Positions 48,183-51,696 of a stretch of 64,000 bases of DNA are shown piece after piece. The stretch's first letter is position 1. Every line of letters begins with the position of its first letter. This stretch comes from a virus. Its lineage: Duplodnaviria > Heunggongvirae > Uroviricota > Caudoviricetes. The notes under the pieces were generated by a model, which made no database searches, had not been told where the DNA came from, and was given only the letters and a program-made list of their open reading frames with translations. The position numbers and the translations under genes were made by a program. The stretch is from the IMG/VR virus record IMGVR_UViG_2875703104_000004; one strand, given 5' to 3'.

Positions 48183-50120
48183 GTGACTCTTAAACGGGCC
48201 TGTTCCCTGCTGACGGTGAAATCCTTCAGTGAGGATGAACGGGTGATCACCGGGATTGCGTCAACGCCTTCTCCGGATCGGGATGGTGACATCCTGGAGC
48301 CGGAGGGGGCGGAGTTTGGCAGTACGATCCCGTTTCTCTGGCAGCATGACCATTCCCGCCCTGTAGGCCAGTGTACGGTGCGTCGGATCAGGGAAGGGCT
48401 GGAAATCACGGCAACACTGGTGAAGCCCGTACCGGATATGCCGTCGCAACTGGCTGCCCGGCTGGATGAGGCATGGGCTGCCATTAAGACCGGGCTGGTC
48501 AGGGGGCTTTCTGTGGGCTTCCGGCCCCATGAATACACTTATCTGGACGGAGGCGGACTGCATTTTCTGCGCTGGGAGCTGATGGAGGTGTCTGCCGTCA
48601 CCGTGCCCGCGAATGCGGAATGCACCATCCAGACCATTAAATCTTTCGACCGCCCGTTTTCTGCCGCGTCCGGCAACCGGAAACCGGTGGTGAAAATCGC
48701 ATCTTCTGCCGGCGCTTCGGCACAGTCAATAACCTCTTTTCATAAGGAAAAGTCAGCAATGAATACTGGTGAACAGATTAAAAGTTTTGAAAACAAGCGT
48801 GCGGCGCTGGCAGCCTCCCTTGAGGAGGTCATGACCAAAGCCGCAGAGGAAGGCCGCACACTGGATGTGGAAGAGGAAGAGCACTACGACAACACCGCAG
48901 CGGAAATCCGTCAGGTGGATGCGCACCTGAAGCGTCTGCGTGAACTGGAAACCAGTAAGGCCGCCACGGCACAGCCGGTGAAACAGGCCGGTAACGGGAA
49001 TGTGGCCACGGTGGCTTCAGCGCCGGTGATCCGTGTTGAGCAGAAACTGGAGAAGGGGATTGGTTTCGCCCGCTTTGCCAAATCACTGGCCGCGGCTAAA
49101 GGTGTCCGCTCTGAAGCCCTGGAAGTGGCCCGTCGTCAGTATCCGGATGACAGCCGTCTGCATCATGTCCTGAAGTCGGCGGTGGGGGCAGGGACCACCA
49201 CGGACCCACAGTGGGCAGGCAGCCTGTCTGAATATCAGGAATATGCGCAGGACTTTATTGATTATCTGCGTCCGCAGACCATTATCGGGCGATTTGGTCA
49301 TGGCGGGATCCCGGCACTTCGTCAGGTGCCGTTCAATATTCGCGTGCATGCCCAGGTGTCCGGTGGTGCTGCCGGCTGGGTGGGGCAGGGTAAGGCCAGA
49401 CCCCTGACGAAGTTTGATTTTGAATCCATCACCTTCAGTCATGCGAAGGTGGCGGCTATTGCGGTACTGACGGAAGAGCTGATCCGTTTTTCCAGTCCTG
49501 CCGCCGATGCGCTGGTCCGTAATGCACTGGCGGAAGCGGTGGTGGCGCGTCTGGACACAGACTTTGTGGACCCGAAAAAAGCGGCGGTGGCCGATGTTTC
49601 CCCTGCGTCCATCACCCATGATGTGAAGGGCACGGCATCAACCGGTAACCCGGATACGGATGCGGAAGCCGCGTTTGGTCAGTTTGTGGCAGCAAACCTG
49701 CAGCCCACCGGTGCGGTCTGGCTGATGTCCAGCACAAATGCCCTGGCGCTGTCCATGCGTAAAAATGCGCTGGGTCAGAAGGAATATCCGGACATGACCC
49801 TGCTTGGCGGCACCTTCCAGGGCCTGCCGGTGATTGTCTCCCAGTACGTGGGTGACCAGCTGGTGCTGGTGAATGCGCCGGATATTTATCTGGCTGATGA
49901 CGGCGGTGTGGCGGTGGATATGTCCCGTGAAGCGTCACTGGAGATGCAGTCTGAACCGACCAGCGACAGCAGCACACCGTCACCGGTGGAGCTGGTCTCC
50001 ATGTTCCAGACCGGCAGCGTGGCCATCCGTGCGGAGCGCTGGATCAACTGGCGTCGTCGCCGTACCGCGGCAGTGGCGGTGATCACCGGTGTGAACTACG
50101 GAACTGCGTCCGGCGGCTGA
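48183..50120 (+). CDS. Prohead protease fused to HK97-type major capsid protein
   Basis: GTG 48183 after CAGGAGG; N-terminal protease-like (DGDILEPEGAEF...LWQHD), coiled-coil linker, C-terminal HK97-fold capsid-like region. Confidence 0.7.
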   Translation: MTLKRACSLLTVKSFSEDERVITGIASTPSPDRDGDILEPEGAEFGSTIPFLWQHDHSRPVGQCTVRRIREGLEITATLVKPVPDMPSQLAARLDEAWAAIKTGLVRGLSVGFRPHEYTYLDGGGLHFLRWELMEVSAVTVPANAECTIQTIKSFDRPFSAASGNRKPVVKIASSAGASAQSITSFHKEKSAMNTGEQIKSFENKRAALAASLEEVMTKAAEEGRTLDVEEEEHYDNTAAEIRQVDAHLKRLRELETSKAATAQPVKQAGNGNVATVASAPVIRVEQKLEKGIGFARFAKSLAAAKGVRSEALEVARRQYPDDSRLHHVLKSAVGAGTTTDPQWAGSLSEYQEYAQDFIDYLRPQTIIGRFGHGGIPALRQVPFNIRVHAQVSGGAAGWVGQGKARPLTKFDFESITFSHAKVAAIAVLTEELIRFSSPAADALVRNALAEAVVARLDTDFVDPKKAAVADVSPASITHDVKGTASTGNPDTDAEAAFGQFVAANLQPTGAVWLMSSTNALALSMRKNALGQKEYPDMTLLGGTFQGLPVIVSQYVGDQLVLVNAPDIYLADDGGVAVDMSREASLEMQSEPTSDSSTPSPVELVSMFQTGSVAIRAERWINWRRRRTAAVAVITGVNYGTASGG

Positions 50121-50164
50121 GTCTGATGAGGAGGGCGGGAGGCGCGAGCTTCCCGCAGTAACTG

Positions 50165-50386
50165 ATGGCAAAAATCCAGTATCTGCAGGGCACGCATGAT
50201 GCCCGGGCCGGGGATATCCGTGATGTGGCACAGCCGTGTGCGGAGGTGCTGGTTCGCCTGGGGAAGGCGGAGTACATCACAGTGCGACGTCCGGCAGGTC
50301 AGAAAAAGAAACGTGATGCGGAGCATGGCGAATGTGGAACCTTTTGCGGCGAACCCGAAAAAACCAGAAATCAGGACGTGATGTAA
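50165..50386 (+). CDS. Hypothetical small protein
   Basis: 73-aa ORF between capsid and portal genes. Confidence 0.3.
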   Translation: MAKIQYLQGTHDARAGDIRDVAQPCAEVLVRLGKAEYITVRRPAGQKKKRDAEHGECGTFCGEPEKTRNQDVM

Positions 50387-51696
50387 AAGAGGTGGGCTGG
50401 ACCAGCCTGTTTCAGGCGGTGGCTGAGCCTTTTGCCGGTGCCTGGCAGCAGGGTGTGAAAGCCGATCCGGAAACCGTTTTGTCCTTTCACGCGGTGTTTT
50501 CTTGCATTTCGCTGATATCCCAGGATATCGCCAAAATGCGGCTGCGCCTGATGCAGACCGATACACAGGGGATCCGCCGTGAAAAACGACAGGGGGATAT
50601 TGCCCGTCTCTGTCGTCGTCCCAATGCACAGCAGAATCGTATCCAGTTTTTTGAACTGTGGCTGAACGCCAAACTGCGTCACGGCAATACGGTGGTGTTG
50701 AAAATCCGTAACTCCCGGGGGCAGATCAAAGAACTGCGTATTCTGGACTGGAGCCGGGTTGAACCTCTGGTGGCGGATGACGGCGAGGTGTTCTATCGCA
50801 TTACACCGGACCGGAACTGCGGGATCACTGAGGCGGTGACGGTGCCTGCCAGGGAAGTGATCCACGACCGGTTTAACTGTTTTTTTCATCCGCTTGTGGG
50901 GCTGCCGCCGGTGTATGCTGCCGGGCTGGCGGCCACGCAGGGGCATCATATTCAGGAAAATTCGACGTCTTTTTTCAGAAATGGCGGCAGGCCGTCCGGG
51001 GTGATTGAGATCCCCGGCAGTATTACGGAAGAAAATGCGAAAAAACTGAAGAGCAACTGGGACAGCGGGTATACAGGCGAAAATGCGGGGAAAACGGCCA
51101 TTCTGAGCAACGGGGCAAAATACAACCCCACGACGTTTTCACCGGTGGATGCGCAGACGGTGGAACAACTGAAGATGACCGCTGAAATTGTCTGTTCGGT
51201 GTTCCGTGTCCCGGCCTACAAGATTGGCGTGGCACAACCGCCTTCCAGTGACAACGTGGAGGCGCTGGAGCAGCAGTATTATTCCCAGTGCCTGCAGACG
51301 CTGATTGAGTCCATTGAACTGTTACTGGATGAGGCGCTGGAAACGGGGGAAAACGAGAGTACAGAATTTGATGTCACCACGCTGCTGAGAATGGACAGTG
51401 AGCGGCGCATGAAAACGCTGGGGGATGCGGTGAAAAATACGCTTCTCACGCCCAATGAGGCCCGTAAACGGGAGAACCTGCCGCCTCTGGCCGGCGGTGA
51501 TGCACTGTATCTTCAGCAGCAGAACTACAGTCTGGAGGCGCTGTCCCGTCGTGATGCCCGTGAGGATCCGTTCGCGTCGACCGGGAAAACAGTTTCATCA
51601 CAGCTGCCTGACGGCGCATCTGACGGTAATAAGGCCATAAGCGAAACAGAGCGTGATGCGGTGAAGGCGATGTTCAGGGGGATACTGCGAAAATGA
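50332..51696 (+). CDS. Portal protein (HK97 family)
   Basis: 454 aa; FFRNGGRPSGVIEIPG...NPTTFSPVDAQTVEQLKMTAEIVCSVFRVPAYKIG. Confidence 0.75.
   Translation: MWNLLRRTRKNQKSGRDVKEVGWTSLFQAVAEPFAGAWQQGVKADPETVLSFHAVFSCISLISQDIAKMRLRLMQTDTQGIRREKRQGDIARLCRRPNAQQNRIQFFELWLNAKLRHGNTVVLKIRNSRGQIKELRILDWSRVEPLVADDGEVFYRITPDRNCGITEAVTVPAREVIHDRFNCFFHPLVGLPPVYAAGLAATQGHHIQENSTSFFRNGGRPSGVIEIPGSITEENAKKLKSNWDSGYTGENAGKTAILSNGAKYNPTTFSPVDAQTVEQLKMTAEIVCSVFRVPAYKIGVAQPPSSDNVEALEQQYYSQCLQTLIESIELLLDEALETGENESTEFDVTTLLRMDSERRMKTLGDAVKNTLLTPNEARKRENLPPLAGGDALYLQQQNYSLEALSRRDAREDPFASTGKTVSSQLPDGASDGNKAISETERDAVKAMFRGILRK

What the first reader, a model, noticed from the sequence alone, without database searches (positions are those of the whole stretch)
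48183..51696. Non-canonical head gene order: terL, protease-capsid fusion, then portal
The usual HK97-like order is terL, portal, protease, capsid. Here a 645-aa protease-capsid fusion directly follows terL and the portal comes after it. A fused protease-capsid gene occurs in some phages, but the portal lying downstream is unusual and could also reflect a misjoin.
Basis: partly seen in the sequence, partly recalled or inferred. Interest (0 to 1): 0.4.

Follow-up and report, generated by a model that had tools for sequence, protein, structure and literature searches.

The report
Known BP-4795-type phage head module
The odd gene order (terminase, a fused protease-capsid gene, then the portal) is real, but it is the normal, conserved layout of a very common family of E. 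coli prophages (the BP-4795/2851-type Shiga-toxin phages) and their distant relatives, not an assembly error or a novelty.

Summary
The + strand carries terS, terL (46457-48118), a 645-aa S78-protease/HK97-capsid fusion (48183-50120), a 73-aa ORF, an HK97-family portal (50332-51696), a 353-aa fibrous protein, then the head-tail adaptors.

The misjoin idea is refuted. The region lies inside a 16.9-kb block that is 99.99% identical and collinear to a finished E. coli chromosome. The same order occurs in 1255 of 5426 complete E. coli genomes and in more than 90 phage records, including BP-4795, 2851, 1717 and YYZ-2008. It also occurs in every relative retrieved with enough flank for the portal, down to about 30% identity (Burkholderia, Acidovorax, Psychrobacter, Snodgrassella, IMG/VR contigs). 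HK97 and phiP27 have the canonical order, so phiP27 is the wrong comparator.

The arrangement is already known and ordinary. One thing may be new. Every fused gene keeps an in-frame ATG or GTG with a Shine-Dalgarno motif exactly where unfused relatives start their capsid gene (Met193, ATG 48759, TAAGGA 48743-48748). Fused and split states are interleaved on the tree. I infer a nested gene that makes both protease-delta-capsid and delta-capsid, as in lambda C/Nu3; no expression data were available.

Side notes: "frameshifted portal" annotations reflect a G5/G6 polymorphism, and the window is a scaffold with unreliable joins at its N runs.

The parts
45240..45605 (+). HNH endonuclease, typical partner of HK97-type cos terminases, upstream of terS
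   Evidence: ORF; annotated as HNH endonuclease at the identical EcPF40 locus and in BP-4795-type phages
45897..46460 (+). terminase small subunit (GTG start as annotated by PGAP; the longer ORF begins at 45822)
   Evidence: PF03592 E=1.7e-8 and phrog_641 E=2e-68; PGAP coordinates; start codon checked
46457..48118 (+). terminase large subunit
   Evidence: PF03354 and PF20441; phrog_9 and phrog_7622
48143..48168 (+). intrinsic-terminator-like hairpin (GAACCGC-TGCG-GCGGTTT) plus T run, between terL and the fusion gene
   Evidence: Conserved at the same position in 13 other enterobacterial genera, with an invariant stem, a variable loop and one compensatory pair. Also present in Candidimonas and Psychrobacter loci. 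HK97 has an annotated putative terminator directly upstream of its protease gene
48183..50120 (+). 645-aa prohead protease / delta domain / HK97-fold major capsid protein fusion gene
   Evidence: PF04586, PF05065, TIGR01554, TIGR01543; phrog_617 end to end; the 97%-identical cluster has 9916 members; SD AGGAGG at 48172-48177
48183..48650 (+). S78 protease domain (residues 1-156); His55 (48345-48347) and Ser110 (48510-48512) align with HK97 gp4 His65 and Ser114
   Evidence: BLASTP against HK97 gp4, 29% identity, E=2e-8; residues invariant in alignments A2 and A5; beta-rich fold in the AF2 model at pLDDT 60-75
48651..48758 (+). hypervariable, predicted-disordered linker (residues 157-192) joining the protease to the capsid-protein part
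   Evidence: gap-rich columns in 150 representatives; AF2 pLDDT about 24 for residues 141-193
48743..48761 (+). candidate internal ribosome-binding site (TAAGGA 48743-48748) and in-frame ATG (48759-48761, Met193), at the ancestral start of the capsid gene
   Evidence: Inferred from conservation; expression not shown
48759..48977 (+). delta-domain-like helical hairpin (about residues 193-265), the scaffolding part of the capsid protein
   Evidence: AF2 helices 195-222 and 229-261 at pLDDT about 70; TIGR01554 match starts at residue 204, profile position 3
50165..50386 (+). 73-aa conserved small basic protein of unknown function (phrog_829); overlaps the portal start by 55 nt
   Evidence: phrog_829 E=7e-39; no Pfam or NCBIfam match; homologues between capsid and portal genes in most relatives
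50332..51696 (+). HK97-family portal protein, 454 aa
   Evidence: PF04860 E=1e-81; TIGR01537; matches solved portals 9lbn, 8cez (HK97) and 6tba; 27% identical to HK97 gp3
51677..51681 (+). G5 run near the portal 3' end; a G6 allele fuses the portal and the next ORF into one 859-aa 'portal' (phage 2851)
51693..52754 (+). 353-aa fibrous protein: N-terminal long helix, 54-aa tandem repeats (162-bp period, 51918-52288), conserved C-terminal beta domain with a CBM5/12-like tip. Start overlaps the portal stop (ATGA). Function unknown
52751..53077 (+). head-tail adaptor Ad1 (gp6-like)
   Evidence: PF05135 and phrog_40
53090..53440 (+). head closure protein Hc1
   Evidence: PF05521 and phrog_25

Best explanation
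This is an intact head-morphogenesis module of a BP-4795/2851-type lambdoid E. coli prophage. Its native gene order is HNH, terS, terL, [terminator-like hairpin], protease-delta-capsid fusion, small 73-aa gene, portal, fibrous 353-aa protein, Ad1, Hc1. Relative to HK97, the block [hairpin-protease-capsid] and the block [portal] have swapped places, and an old, widespread clade inherits this layout. The parts are those of an HK97-type assembly line. The portal nucleates the procapsid. The capsid protein brings its own N-terminal delta (scaffolding) domain. The S78 serine protease (His55, Ser110) is delivered into the procapsid by being covalently attached, through a disordered linker, to the delta domain, rather than by the non-covalent C-terminal tail that HK97 gp4 uses. 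It then removes the protease, linker and delta parts. Sub-claim, inferred, probability about 0.6: the fusion ORF is a nested gene. Ribosomes also start at the conserved internal TAAGGA-N10-ATG (Met193) and make plain delta-capsid protein, so only a minority of subunits carry a protease. This would resemble lambda C/Nu3, HSV-1 UL26/UL26.5 and HFTV1 gp17/gp17.5.
For: Shown. Domains. Catalytic His and Ser align with HK97 gp4 H65 and S114. Collinear at 99.988% with a finished chromosome. 100% identical over 7.3 kb in many complete genomes, and present in 1255 of 5426 E. coli genomes. 93.6-96.8% nucleotide identity and the same order in BP-4795, 2851, 1717, YYZ-2008, JLK-2012 and Stx1a/Stx2c phages. 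The same order in every relative locus with enough flank for the portal, down to about 30% identity, from 19 GTDB loci and 21 IMG/VR contigs, plus Burkholderia phage vB_FUB47a. Fused proteins of about 645 aa dominate the nearest 150 representative clusters at 50% identity. For the nested-gene sub-claim: unfused relatives start their capsid gene exactly at the residue aligned with Met193, using the same AAGGA motif. Nearly all fused representatives have M or V there, after a hypervariable linker. V is GTG in 3 of 3 cases with DNA available. 10 of 14 independent fused lineages have SD dG <= -5 kcal/mol against a background rate of 0.16, P=7e-6. The AAGGA motif is kept although it is read in different codon registers (AAG-GAA in the window, A-AAG-GA in other genera). 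Fused and split states are interleaved on the capsid tree. AF2 places a disordered segment up to residue 193 and a helical hairpin from 195. Nested protease/scaffold genes in lambda, HSV-1 and HFTV1 are described in doi 10.64898/2026.09.13.751334.
Against: No expression, proteomic or structural data for this module were available. Strauch et al. 2008 on phage 2851 could not be read. The internal SD is only moderate (-6.2 kcal/mol here, in roughly the top 15% of codon positions in the gene). 4 of 14 lineages have weak SD scores. The conserved Met could in principle be kept for a structural reason. The AF2 model of the capsid part is unreliable (mean pLDDT 43). The maturation cleavage sites are not known. 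That this particular prophage copy is inducible is not shown; the window is a scaffold and its neighbouring joins are doubtful.
Confidence: 0.9

Rival explanations
1. Assembly misjoin: the protease-capsid gene was placed between terL and the portal by a chimeric contig join.
For: The window is a scaffold. It has N runs at 39991-40011 and 42610-42630, several single Ns, a 129-bp overlap duplicated on both sides of one N run, and three prophage late regions in tandem. Misjoins therefore do occur elsewhere in this window.
Against: There is no N between 42631 and 59573. This block is 99.988% identical and collinear with the EcPF40 chromosome. The same joins occur in 1232 complete genomes, in Sanger-era phage genomes BP-4795 and 2851, and in distant relatives from other bacterial orders.
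Confidence: 0.01
2. Decayed cryptic prophage: the order and the fused ORF are local rearrangement and stop-loss damage in a dead prophage, and the 'portal' is a frameshifted pseudogene, as PGAP labels it.
For: PGAP marks the portal at the identical EcPF40 locus as 'frameshifted'. Some phage records call it a pseudogene (H91 and H107). E. coli carries many defective lambdoid prophages (established knowledge).
Against: All ORFs are intact and conserved in length across genera. The split portal + 353-aa arrangement with an ATGA overlap and a conserved portal C terminus (..AM[LI]RG[LI]L[TR]K*) is the state in 14 enterobacterial loci, so it is ancestral. BP-4795, deposited as a complete phage genome, has exactly this split form. 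The 'frameshift' is a G5/G6 polymorphism, 39 against 25 loci.
Confidence: 0.03
3. Single-product polyprotein: every capsid subunit is made as the full 645-aa protease-delta-capsid protein and frees itself by autoproteolysis. The internal ATG and SD are an unused relic of the ancestral split genes.
For: The ORF is continuous. Protease/capsid fusions are a recognised annotation class (NCBIfam NF045541; actinobacteriophage 'capsid and protease fusion'), and I found no report of an internal start for them. The internal SD is only moderate.
Against: The relic would have to survive in at least 14 fused lineages of under about 50% identity, inside a linker whose length and sequence are otherwise free to vary. 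GTG, not other Val codons, is found where Met is replaced (3 of 3). Repeated switching between fused and split states is easiest to explain if both give the same products.
Confidence: 0.35

Closest known systems
Head modules of Stx phages BP-4795 (AJ556162 ORF54-62), 2851, 1717, YYZ-2008, JLK-2012, and the Stx1a/Stx2c-converting and PPompW prophages of E. coli O157
   Same: 93.6-96.8% nucleotide identity over terL to portal. Identical gene order. The same 645-aa fused gene, annotated 'putative major head protein/prohead protease' in BP-4795. The same 73-aa ORF overlapping the portal start.
   Different: The copy number of the 54-aa repeat in the post-portal protein differs: 353 aa here, 407 aa in Stx2a_1447, 461 aa in BP-4795. 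In 2851 a G6 allele fuses the portal and this protein into 859 aa.
Phage HK97 head module (gp1-gp7)
   Same: Same parts: terS, terL, HK97-family portal (27% identity), S78 protease with the same His/Ser (29% identity), HK97-family capsid protein with an N-terminal delta domain and no separate scaffold gene, Ad1, Hc1, gp10-like protein, tail terminator. A terminator-like hairpin lies directly upstream of the protease gene.
   Different: In HK97 the portal precedes protease-capsid, and protease and capsid are separate genes. HK97 has no 73-aa gene and no fibrous post-portal gene. The capsid proteins are not detectably similar pairwise (E=0.33).
Burkholderia phage vB_FUB47a and other unfused relatives (Acidovorax, Snodgrassella, Psychrobacter prophages, IMG/VR contigs)
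   Same: Same order: terS, terL, protease, capsid, small ORF, portal. 39% identity. The capsid gene starts at the residue aligned with Met193, behind the same TAAGGA motif.
   Different: A stop codon separates the protease and capsid genes, often lying between the SD and the ATG. Some relatives lack the fibrous post-portal gene.
Other protease-capsid fusions (NCBIfam NF045541 'prohead protease/major capsid protein fusion protein'; actinobacteriophage 'capsid and protease fusion' genes)
   Same: The same idea: an HK97-type protease fused in frame upstream of the capsid protein.
   Different: A different sequence family: score 49.6 bits against a cut-off of 525 for NF045541. Gene order in those phages was not examined.
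Nested protease/scaffold genes: lambda C/Nu3, HSV-1 UL26/UL26.5, HFTV1 gp17/gp17.5
   Same: A long ORF encodes the protease plus an assembly domain. An in-frame internal start gives the assembly protein alone in larger amounts (doi 10.64898/2026.09.13.751334). Here a conserved internal SD and start codon suggests the same logic.
   Different: Here the internal product would be the capsid protein itself with its delta domain, not a free scaffold. The internal start has not been shown experimentally.
Phage phiP27
   Same: An Stx-converting E. coli phage with HNH, cos, terS, terL and HK97-type head genes.
   Different: Canonical order (terL, small ORF, portal, protease, capsid), separate protease and capsid genes, and a contractile tail. 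It is not a relative of this module.

Membership tests
BP-4795/2851-type lambdoid head module | High nucleotide identity and collinearity across terS to Ad1 | tested here: met
   93.6-96.8% identity over 5.2 kb, 100% coverage, in a single piece. Gene tables match.
BP-4795/2851-type lambdoid head module | Fused 645-aa major head protein/prohead protease gene directly after terL | tested here: met
HK97-type head assembly system | HK97-family portal (PF04860/TIGR01537) | tested here: met
   E=1e-81 and 4e-106; matches the solved HK97 portal 8cez
HK97-type head assembly system | S78 prohead serine protease with catalytic His and Ser | tested here: met
   PF04586 above its cut-off. H55 and S110 align with gp4 H65 and S114; that these are the catalytic residues is from my knowledge of HK97 gp4. 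Activity not testable here.
HK97-type head assembly system | HK97-fold capsid protein with an N-terminal delta domain and no separate scaffolding gene | tested here: met
   PF05065 and TIGR01554 above their cut-offs. Helical hairpin at 195-261. No scaffold family was found among the neighbouring ORFs. The fold itself was not confirmed: the AF2 model is poor.
HK97-type head assembly system | Canonical gene order terL, portal, protease, capsid | tested here: not met
   Here the order is terL, protease-capsid, 73-aa ORF, portal. HK97 and phiP27 have the canonical order. Order is a habit of the family, not a functional requirement.
NCBIfam NF045541 protease/capsid fusion family | Score above the curated cut-off (525 bits) | tested here: not met
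   49.6 bits: the same architecture but a different family
Nested protease/assembly-protein genes (lambda C/Nu3 type) | In-frame internal start codon with a ribosome-binding site at the domain boundary, conserved among relatives | tested here: met
Nested protease/assembly-protein genes (lambda C/Nu3 type) | Two protein products actually made from the one ORF | not testable with these tools
   Needs proteomics, N-terminal sequencing or initiation-site Ribo-seq
   phiP27 has the canonical order and a myovirus tail. Its small pre-portal ORF is unrelated to the 73-aa ORF. phiP27 is not among the near matches.

The most novel reading that the evidence does not exclude
The protease-capsid 'fusion' genes of this large clade are nested two-product genes. 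A conserved internal ribosome-binding site and ATG or GTG at the old capsid-gene start (Met193 here) yields plain delta-capsid protein alongside a minority of full-length protease-delta-capsid. This would set the protease:capsid ratio without a separate gene. It would also explain why lineages switch freely between fused and split states by gaining or losing a single stop codon located between the SD and the ATG. I did not find this described for HK97-type protease-capsid fusions in the papers searched.
Probability: 0.6. Interest if true: 0.45.

Novelty: already known. Interest (0 to 1): 0.2.

Why it matters
As stated, the finding matters little. It is the standard layout of a prophage head module found in about a quarter of complete E. 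coli genomes and in well-known Shiga-toxin phages.

Three practical points follow.

1. Gene order alone should not be used to flag misassembly in phage regions. This clade shows that the [protease-capsid] and [portal] blocks can sit in either order.

2. The widespread 'frameshifted' or 'pseudogene' portal labels for these prophages are probably annotation artefacts of a G5/G6 polymorphism. They could make intact prophages look defective.

3. If the conserved internal start is used, protease-capsid fusions would join lambda C/Nu3 and herpesvirus UL26/UL26.5 as another case where a nested in-frame start sets the stoichiometry of capsid assembly. That is directly testable in inducible Stx phages.

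Tried and rejected
- **Alignment including the split Burkholderia proteins (A1).** It was too divergent to seed a locus search, so A2 was used instead.
- **PDB sequence searches.** There is no close solved relative of the fusion (best hit 9d9w, E=0.0055). The protease domain alone gave nothing meaningful.
- **AlphaFold2 of the fusion with a shallow alignment (74-97% identity).** Mean pLDDT was 43, so only coarse domain boundaries were used and no fold search was run on it.
- **AlphaFold2 of the 353-aa protein.** Mean pLDDT was 50. Foldseek against the PDB gave no hit with E below 0.02, only local matches of about 45 residues to CBM5/12 chitin-binding domains. The function remains open.
- **Programmed -1 frameshift joining the portal and the 353-aa ORF.** Considered and rejected. 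The G run is E. coli-specific and other genera have no slippery site.
- **The 73-aa ORF.** It has no Pfam or NCBIfam match and no similarity to the phiP27 pre-portal ORF.
- **Rfam.** It found no family for the conserved hairpin or anything else in 44000-54500.
- **Literature.** I found no paper discussing this gene order or an internal start in such fusions. Strauch et al. 2008 on phage 2851 is not held.
- **The longer 673-aa reading from ATG 48099.** Rejected. It would run through the terminator hairpin, and all homologues and PHROG profiles begin at the GTG at 48183, behind AGGAGG.
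Full report
**What is there**

The + strand between 45.2 and 54.2 kb carries a tight, co-oriented gene block:
- HNH endonuclease, 45240-45605.
- terS, 45897-46460.
- terL, 46457-48118 (PF03354 and PF20441).
- A 64-nt spacer holding a terminator-like hairpin, 48143-48168.
- A 645-aa ORF, 48183-50120, with a GTG start 5 nt after AGGAGG.
- A 73-aa ORF, 50165-50386.
- A 454-aa ORF, 50332-51696.
- A 353-aa ORF, 51693-52754.
- The Ad1 adaptor (52751-53077), Hc1 (53090-53440), a gp10-like protein, the tail terminator and the tail genes.

The 645-aa protein has Peptidase_S78 at its N terminus and Phage_capsid/TIGR01554 in its C-terminal two thirds. It matches phrog_617 ('major head protein', 626 positions) end to end, E=2e-259.

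The 454-aa protein is an HK97-family portal. PF04860 gives E=1e-81 and TIGR01537 gives E=4e-106. It is 27% identical to HK97 gp3 and matches the solved portals 8cez and 6tba.

**Is it a misjoin?**

No. The window is a scaffold. It has 21-N runs at 39991-40011 and 42610-42630, several single Ns, a 129-bp overlap repeated on both sides of one N run, and three prophage late regions in tandem.

The region in question lies inside a block with no N, 42631-59573. That block is 99.988% identical and collinear with the finished chromosome of E. coli EcPF40, whose PGAP gene coordinates match.

A 7.3-kb query spanning terS to Ad1 is 100% identical in many complete genomes and is present in 1255 of 5426 complete E. 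coli genomes, with a median of three copies per genome.

It is 93.6-96.8% identical, with the same order, in more than 90 phage records. These include BP-4795 (AJ556162 ORF54-62, where ORF56 is annotated 'putative major head protein/prohead protease'), 2851, 1717, YYZ-2008, JLK-2012 and the Stx1a/Stx2c-converting phages of O157.

**How deep does the order go?**

I retrieved relatives of the fusion protein from one-genome-per-species GTDB contigs and from IMG/VR, and located terL, protease, capsid, portal and downstream genes by tblastn.

The order is terL, protease, capsid, (small ORF), portal in every locus with enough flank for the portal: 19 GTDB loci and 21 IMG/VR contigs, plus Burkholderia phage vB_FUB47a. 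The GTDB loci span Enterobacter, Kluyvera, Citrobacter, Pantoea, Rouxiella and other enterics, and also Psychrobacter, Acidovorax, Snodgrassella, Candidimonas and a Burkholderiaceae MAG. Identity to the window falls to about 30%. Loci that end at a contig edge before the portal (for example Reyranella L016) show the same order as far as they reach.

HK97 and phiP27 have the canonical order terL, portal, protease, capsid. The layout is therefore non-canonical relative to HK97 but invariant within a large, old clade.

Compared with HK97, the difference is a swap of two adjacent blocks: [hairpin-protease-capsid] and [portal]. In both layouts a terminator-like hairpin sits directly upstream of the protease gene.

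**The fusion gene**

The protease domain (residues 1-156) is 29% identical to HK97 gp4. His55 and Ser110 align with gp4 His65 and Ser114; that these are the gp4 catalytic residues is from my knowledge. Both are invariant in the family alignments.

Residues 157-192 form a hypervariable, gap-rich linker that is predicted to be disordered.

From residue 193 a helical hairpin (195-261) precedes the capsid body. TIGR01554 aligns from residue 204 at profile position 3. This segment is therefore the delta (scaffolding) domain of an HK97-type capsid protein.

No separate scaffold gene is present.

The fused architecture is the majority state. Most of the nearest 150 representative clusters (at 50% identity) are 630-680 aa and match full length. 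The 97%-identical cluster has 9916 members.

Protease/capsid fusions are also a recognised annotation class in other families: NCBIfam NF045541 (score here 49.6 against a cut-off of 525) and the actinobacteriophage 'capsid and protease fusion' genes.

The likely mechanism is HK97-like assembly, in which the protease is carried into the procapsid by covalent attachment to the delta domain rather than by gp4's non-covalent C-terminal tail. The parts are shown; the process is inferred from the HK97 paradigm.

**A conserved internal start (inference)**

Unfused relatives begin their capsid gene exactly at the residue aligned with Met193 of the fusion. This holds for Burkholderia phage vB_FUB47a, for Acidovorax and Snodgrassella, and for several IMG/VR contigs. 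Representatives P0261 and P0265 also align from query residue 193.

In the window this is ATG 48759, preceded by TAAGGA (48743-48748) with a 10-nt spacer. The unfused Burkholderia phage has the same motif and spacing, and there it is the real ribosome-binding site.

The evidence for conservation is as follows:
- Among 150 representatives the column is M in 112. Almost all the rest have an M displaced by alignment or a V.
- Where DNA is available the V is GTG in 3 of 3 cases. Reyranella has AAGGAGG-N7-GTG.
- All fused loci keep an SD-like motif 6-11 nt upstream.
- 10 of 14 independent fused lineages score at or below -5 kcal/mol against the anti-SD. The background rate is 0.16 of codon positions, giving a binomial P of 7e-6.
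- The AAGGA motif survives although indels put it in different codon registers: AAG-GAA in E. coli and A-AAG-GA in other genera. This points to selection on the RNA rather than on the protein.
- In split relatives the protease stop codon lies between the SD and the ATG, for example aaaggacgaTAGacgATG.
- On a neighbour-joining tree of the capsid parts, fused and split states are interleaved, implying at least four switches.

The simplest reading is that the fusion ORF is a nested gene that gives both protease-delta-capsid and delta-capsid. This would be analogous to the nested protease/scaffold genes of lambda, HSV-1 and HFTV1 (doi 10.64898/2026.09.13.751334).

I put this at about 0.6. The SD is only moderate, and no expression data exist.

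**The two extra genes**

The 73-aa ORF (phrog_829, unknown function) has homologues between capsid and portal in most relatives. They share a conserved N-terminal segment of about 40 aa and a basic tail. The ORF has no Pfam or NCBIfam match.

The 353-aa ORF belongs to a family of stand-alone proteins of about 300-560 aa that follow the portal gene in many members of the clade. These proteins have:
- a long N-terminal helix;
- a variable number of 'IPxPxDGxD' repeats (2.3 copies of a 162-bp unit here; collagen-like GXY repeats in one MAG);
- a conserved C-terminal beta domain whose last 45 or so residues resemble CBM5/12 chitin-binding domains.

The support for the CBM5/12 resemblance is weak: Pfam E=4e-4, below the cut-off, and only local Foldseek matches. 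Databases call these proteins 'portal', 'gp6-like connector' or 'carbohydrate binding domain'. Their function is unknown. A neck or head fibre is my guess.

**Portal 'frameshift'**

In 14 enterobacterial loci the portal ends ..AM[LI]RG[LI]L[TR]K* and its stop overlaps the ATG of the fibrous-protein gene (ATGA). Two separate genes are therefore the ancestral state.

In E. coli a G5 run (51677-51681) is G6 in some prophages. The G6 allele fuses the two ORFs. Among 64 E. coli loci, 39 are G5 and 25 are G6. BP-4795 is G5, with ORF58 plus ORF59. Phage 2851 is G6, with one 859-aa 'portal'.

PGAP labels the G5 form 'frameshifted', and some records label it a 'pseudogene'. This is probably an artefact of using fused reference proteins.

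**Verdict**

The arrangement has been known and annotated since BP-4795 and is very common, so as stated the finding is ordinary. The only part with some novelty is the inferred nested internal start in the fusion gene.

Noticed in passing
window 51677-51696 (G5 run and the portal stop / next ATG overlap); L029 (phage 2851), L030 (BP-4795), L003 (EcPF40): The portal and the following 353-aa gene are separate ORFs with an ATGA overlap here, in BP-4795 and in all other enterobacterial genera. A G6 allele in many E. coli prophages (25 of 64 loci, including phage 2851) fuses them into one 859-aa 'portal'. PGAP and some GenBank records label the G5 form 'frameshifted' or 'pseudogene'; this looks like an annotation artefact.
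   Followed up: yes
window 51693-52754 (repeat array 51918-52288): An uncharacterised fibrous protein family encoded after the portal gene. It has an N-terminal long helix, a variable number of 54-aa 'IPxPxDGxD' repeats (162-bp period, 2.3 copies here; 353 to 461 aa among the E. coli phages checked, 294 to 556 aa across genera), and a conserved C-terminal beta domain with a CBM5/12-like tip. It is misnamed 'portal', 'gp6-like head-tail connector' or 'carbohydrate binding domain' in databases.
   Followed up: partly
window 48143-48168: A terminator-like hairpin with a T run lies between terL and the protease-capsid gene. It is conserved at this position across 14 enterobacterial genera (invariant stem, variable loop, one compensatory pair) and is present in Candidimonas and Psychrobacter relatives. 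HK97 has an annotated putative terminator directly upstream of its protease gene too. Its role is unknown (read-through by Q antitermination, or mRNA processing or stability). There is no Rfam match.
   Followed up: partly
window 39991-40011, 42610-42630, 59574, 60308, 60842 and other single Ns; 41559-41963 = 59789-60193 = 60957-61361: The window is a scaffold of contigs, not a continuous sequence. It has N spacers, a 129-bp overlap duplicated on both sides of the N run at 42610-42630, and exact 405-633-bp duplicates of tail-gene segments around 59.6-61.5 kb. It also holds three prophage late regions in tandem: lambda-like Nu1/A at 5672-8120 and at 27074-29522, plus the module studied here. 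Joins at the Ns, for example tail gene K to the lysis genes at about 42.4-42.6 kb, should not be trusted.
   Followed up: partly
window 50165-50386: A 73-aa basic protein (phrog_829, unknown function) overlaps the portal start by 55 nt. Homologues with a conserved N-terminal segment of about 40 aa and a Lys/Arg-rich tail lie between the capsid and portal genes in most members of the clade. Some distant ones carry a HeH/SAP-like motif or end in ...Y(K/R)RRDM(R/Q)A.
   Followed up: partly
literature lead (PMC12029490), relating to window 48183-50120: [quoted passage not shown] Stx2c-converting phages in the phage collection carry this head module. Whether this protease-capsid fusion builds prolate heads was not checked.
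   Followed up: no
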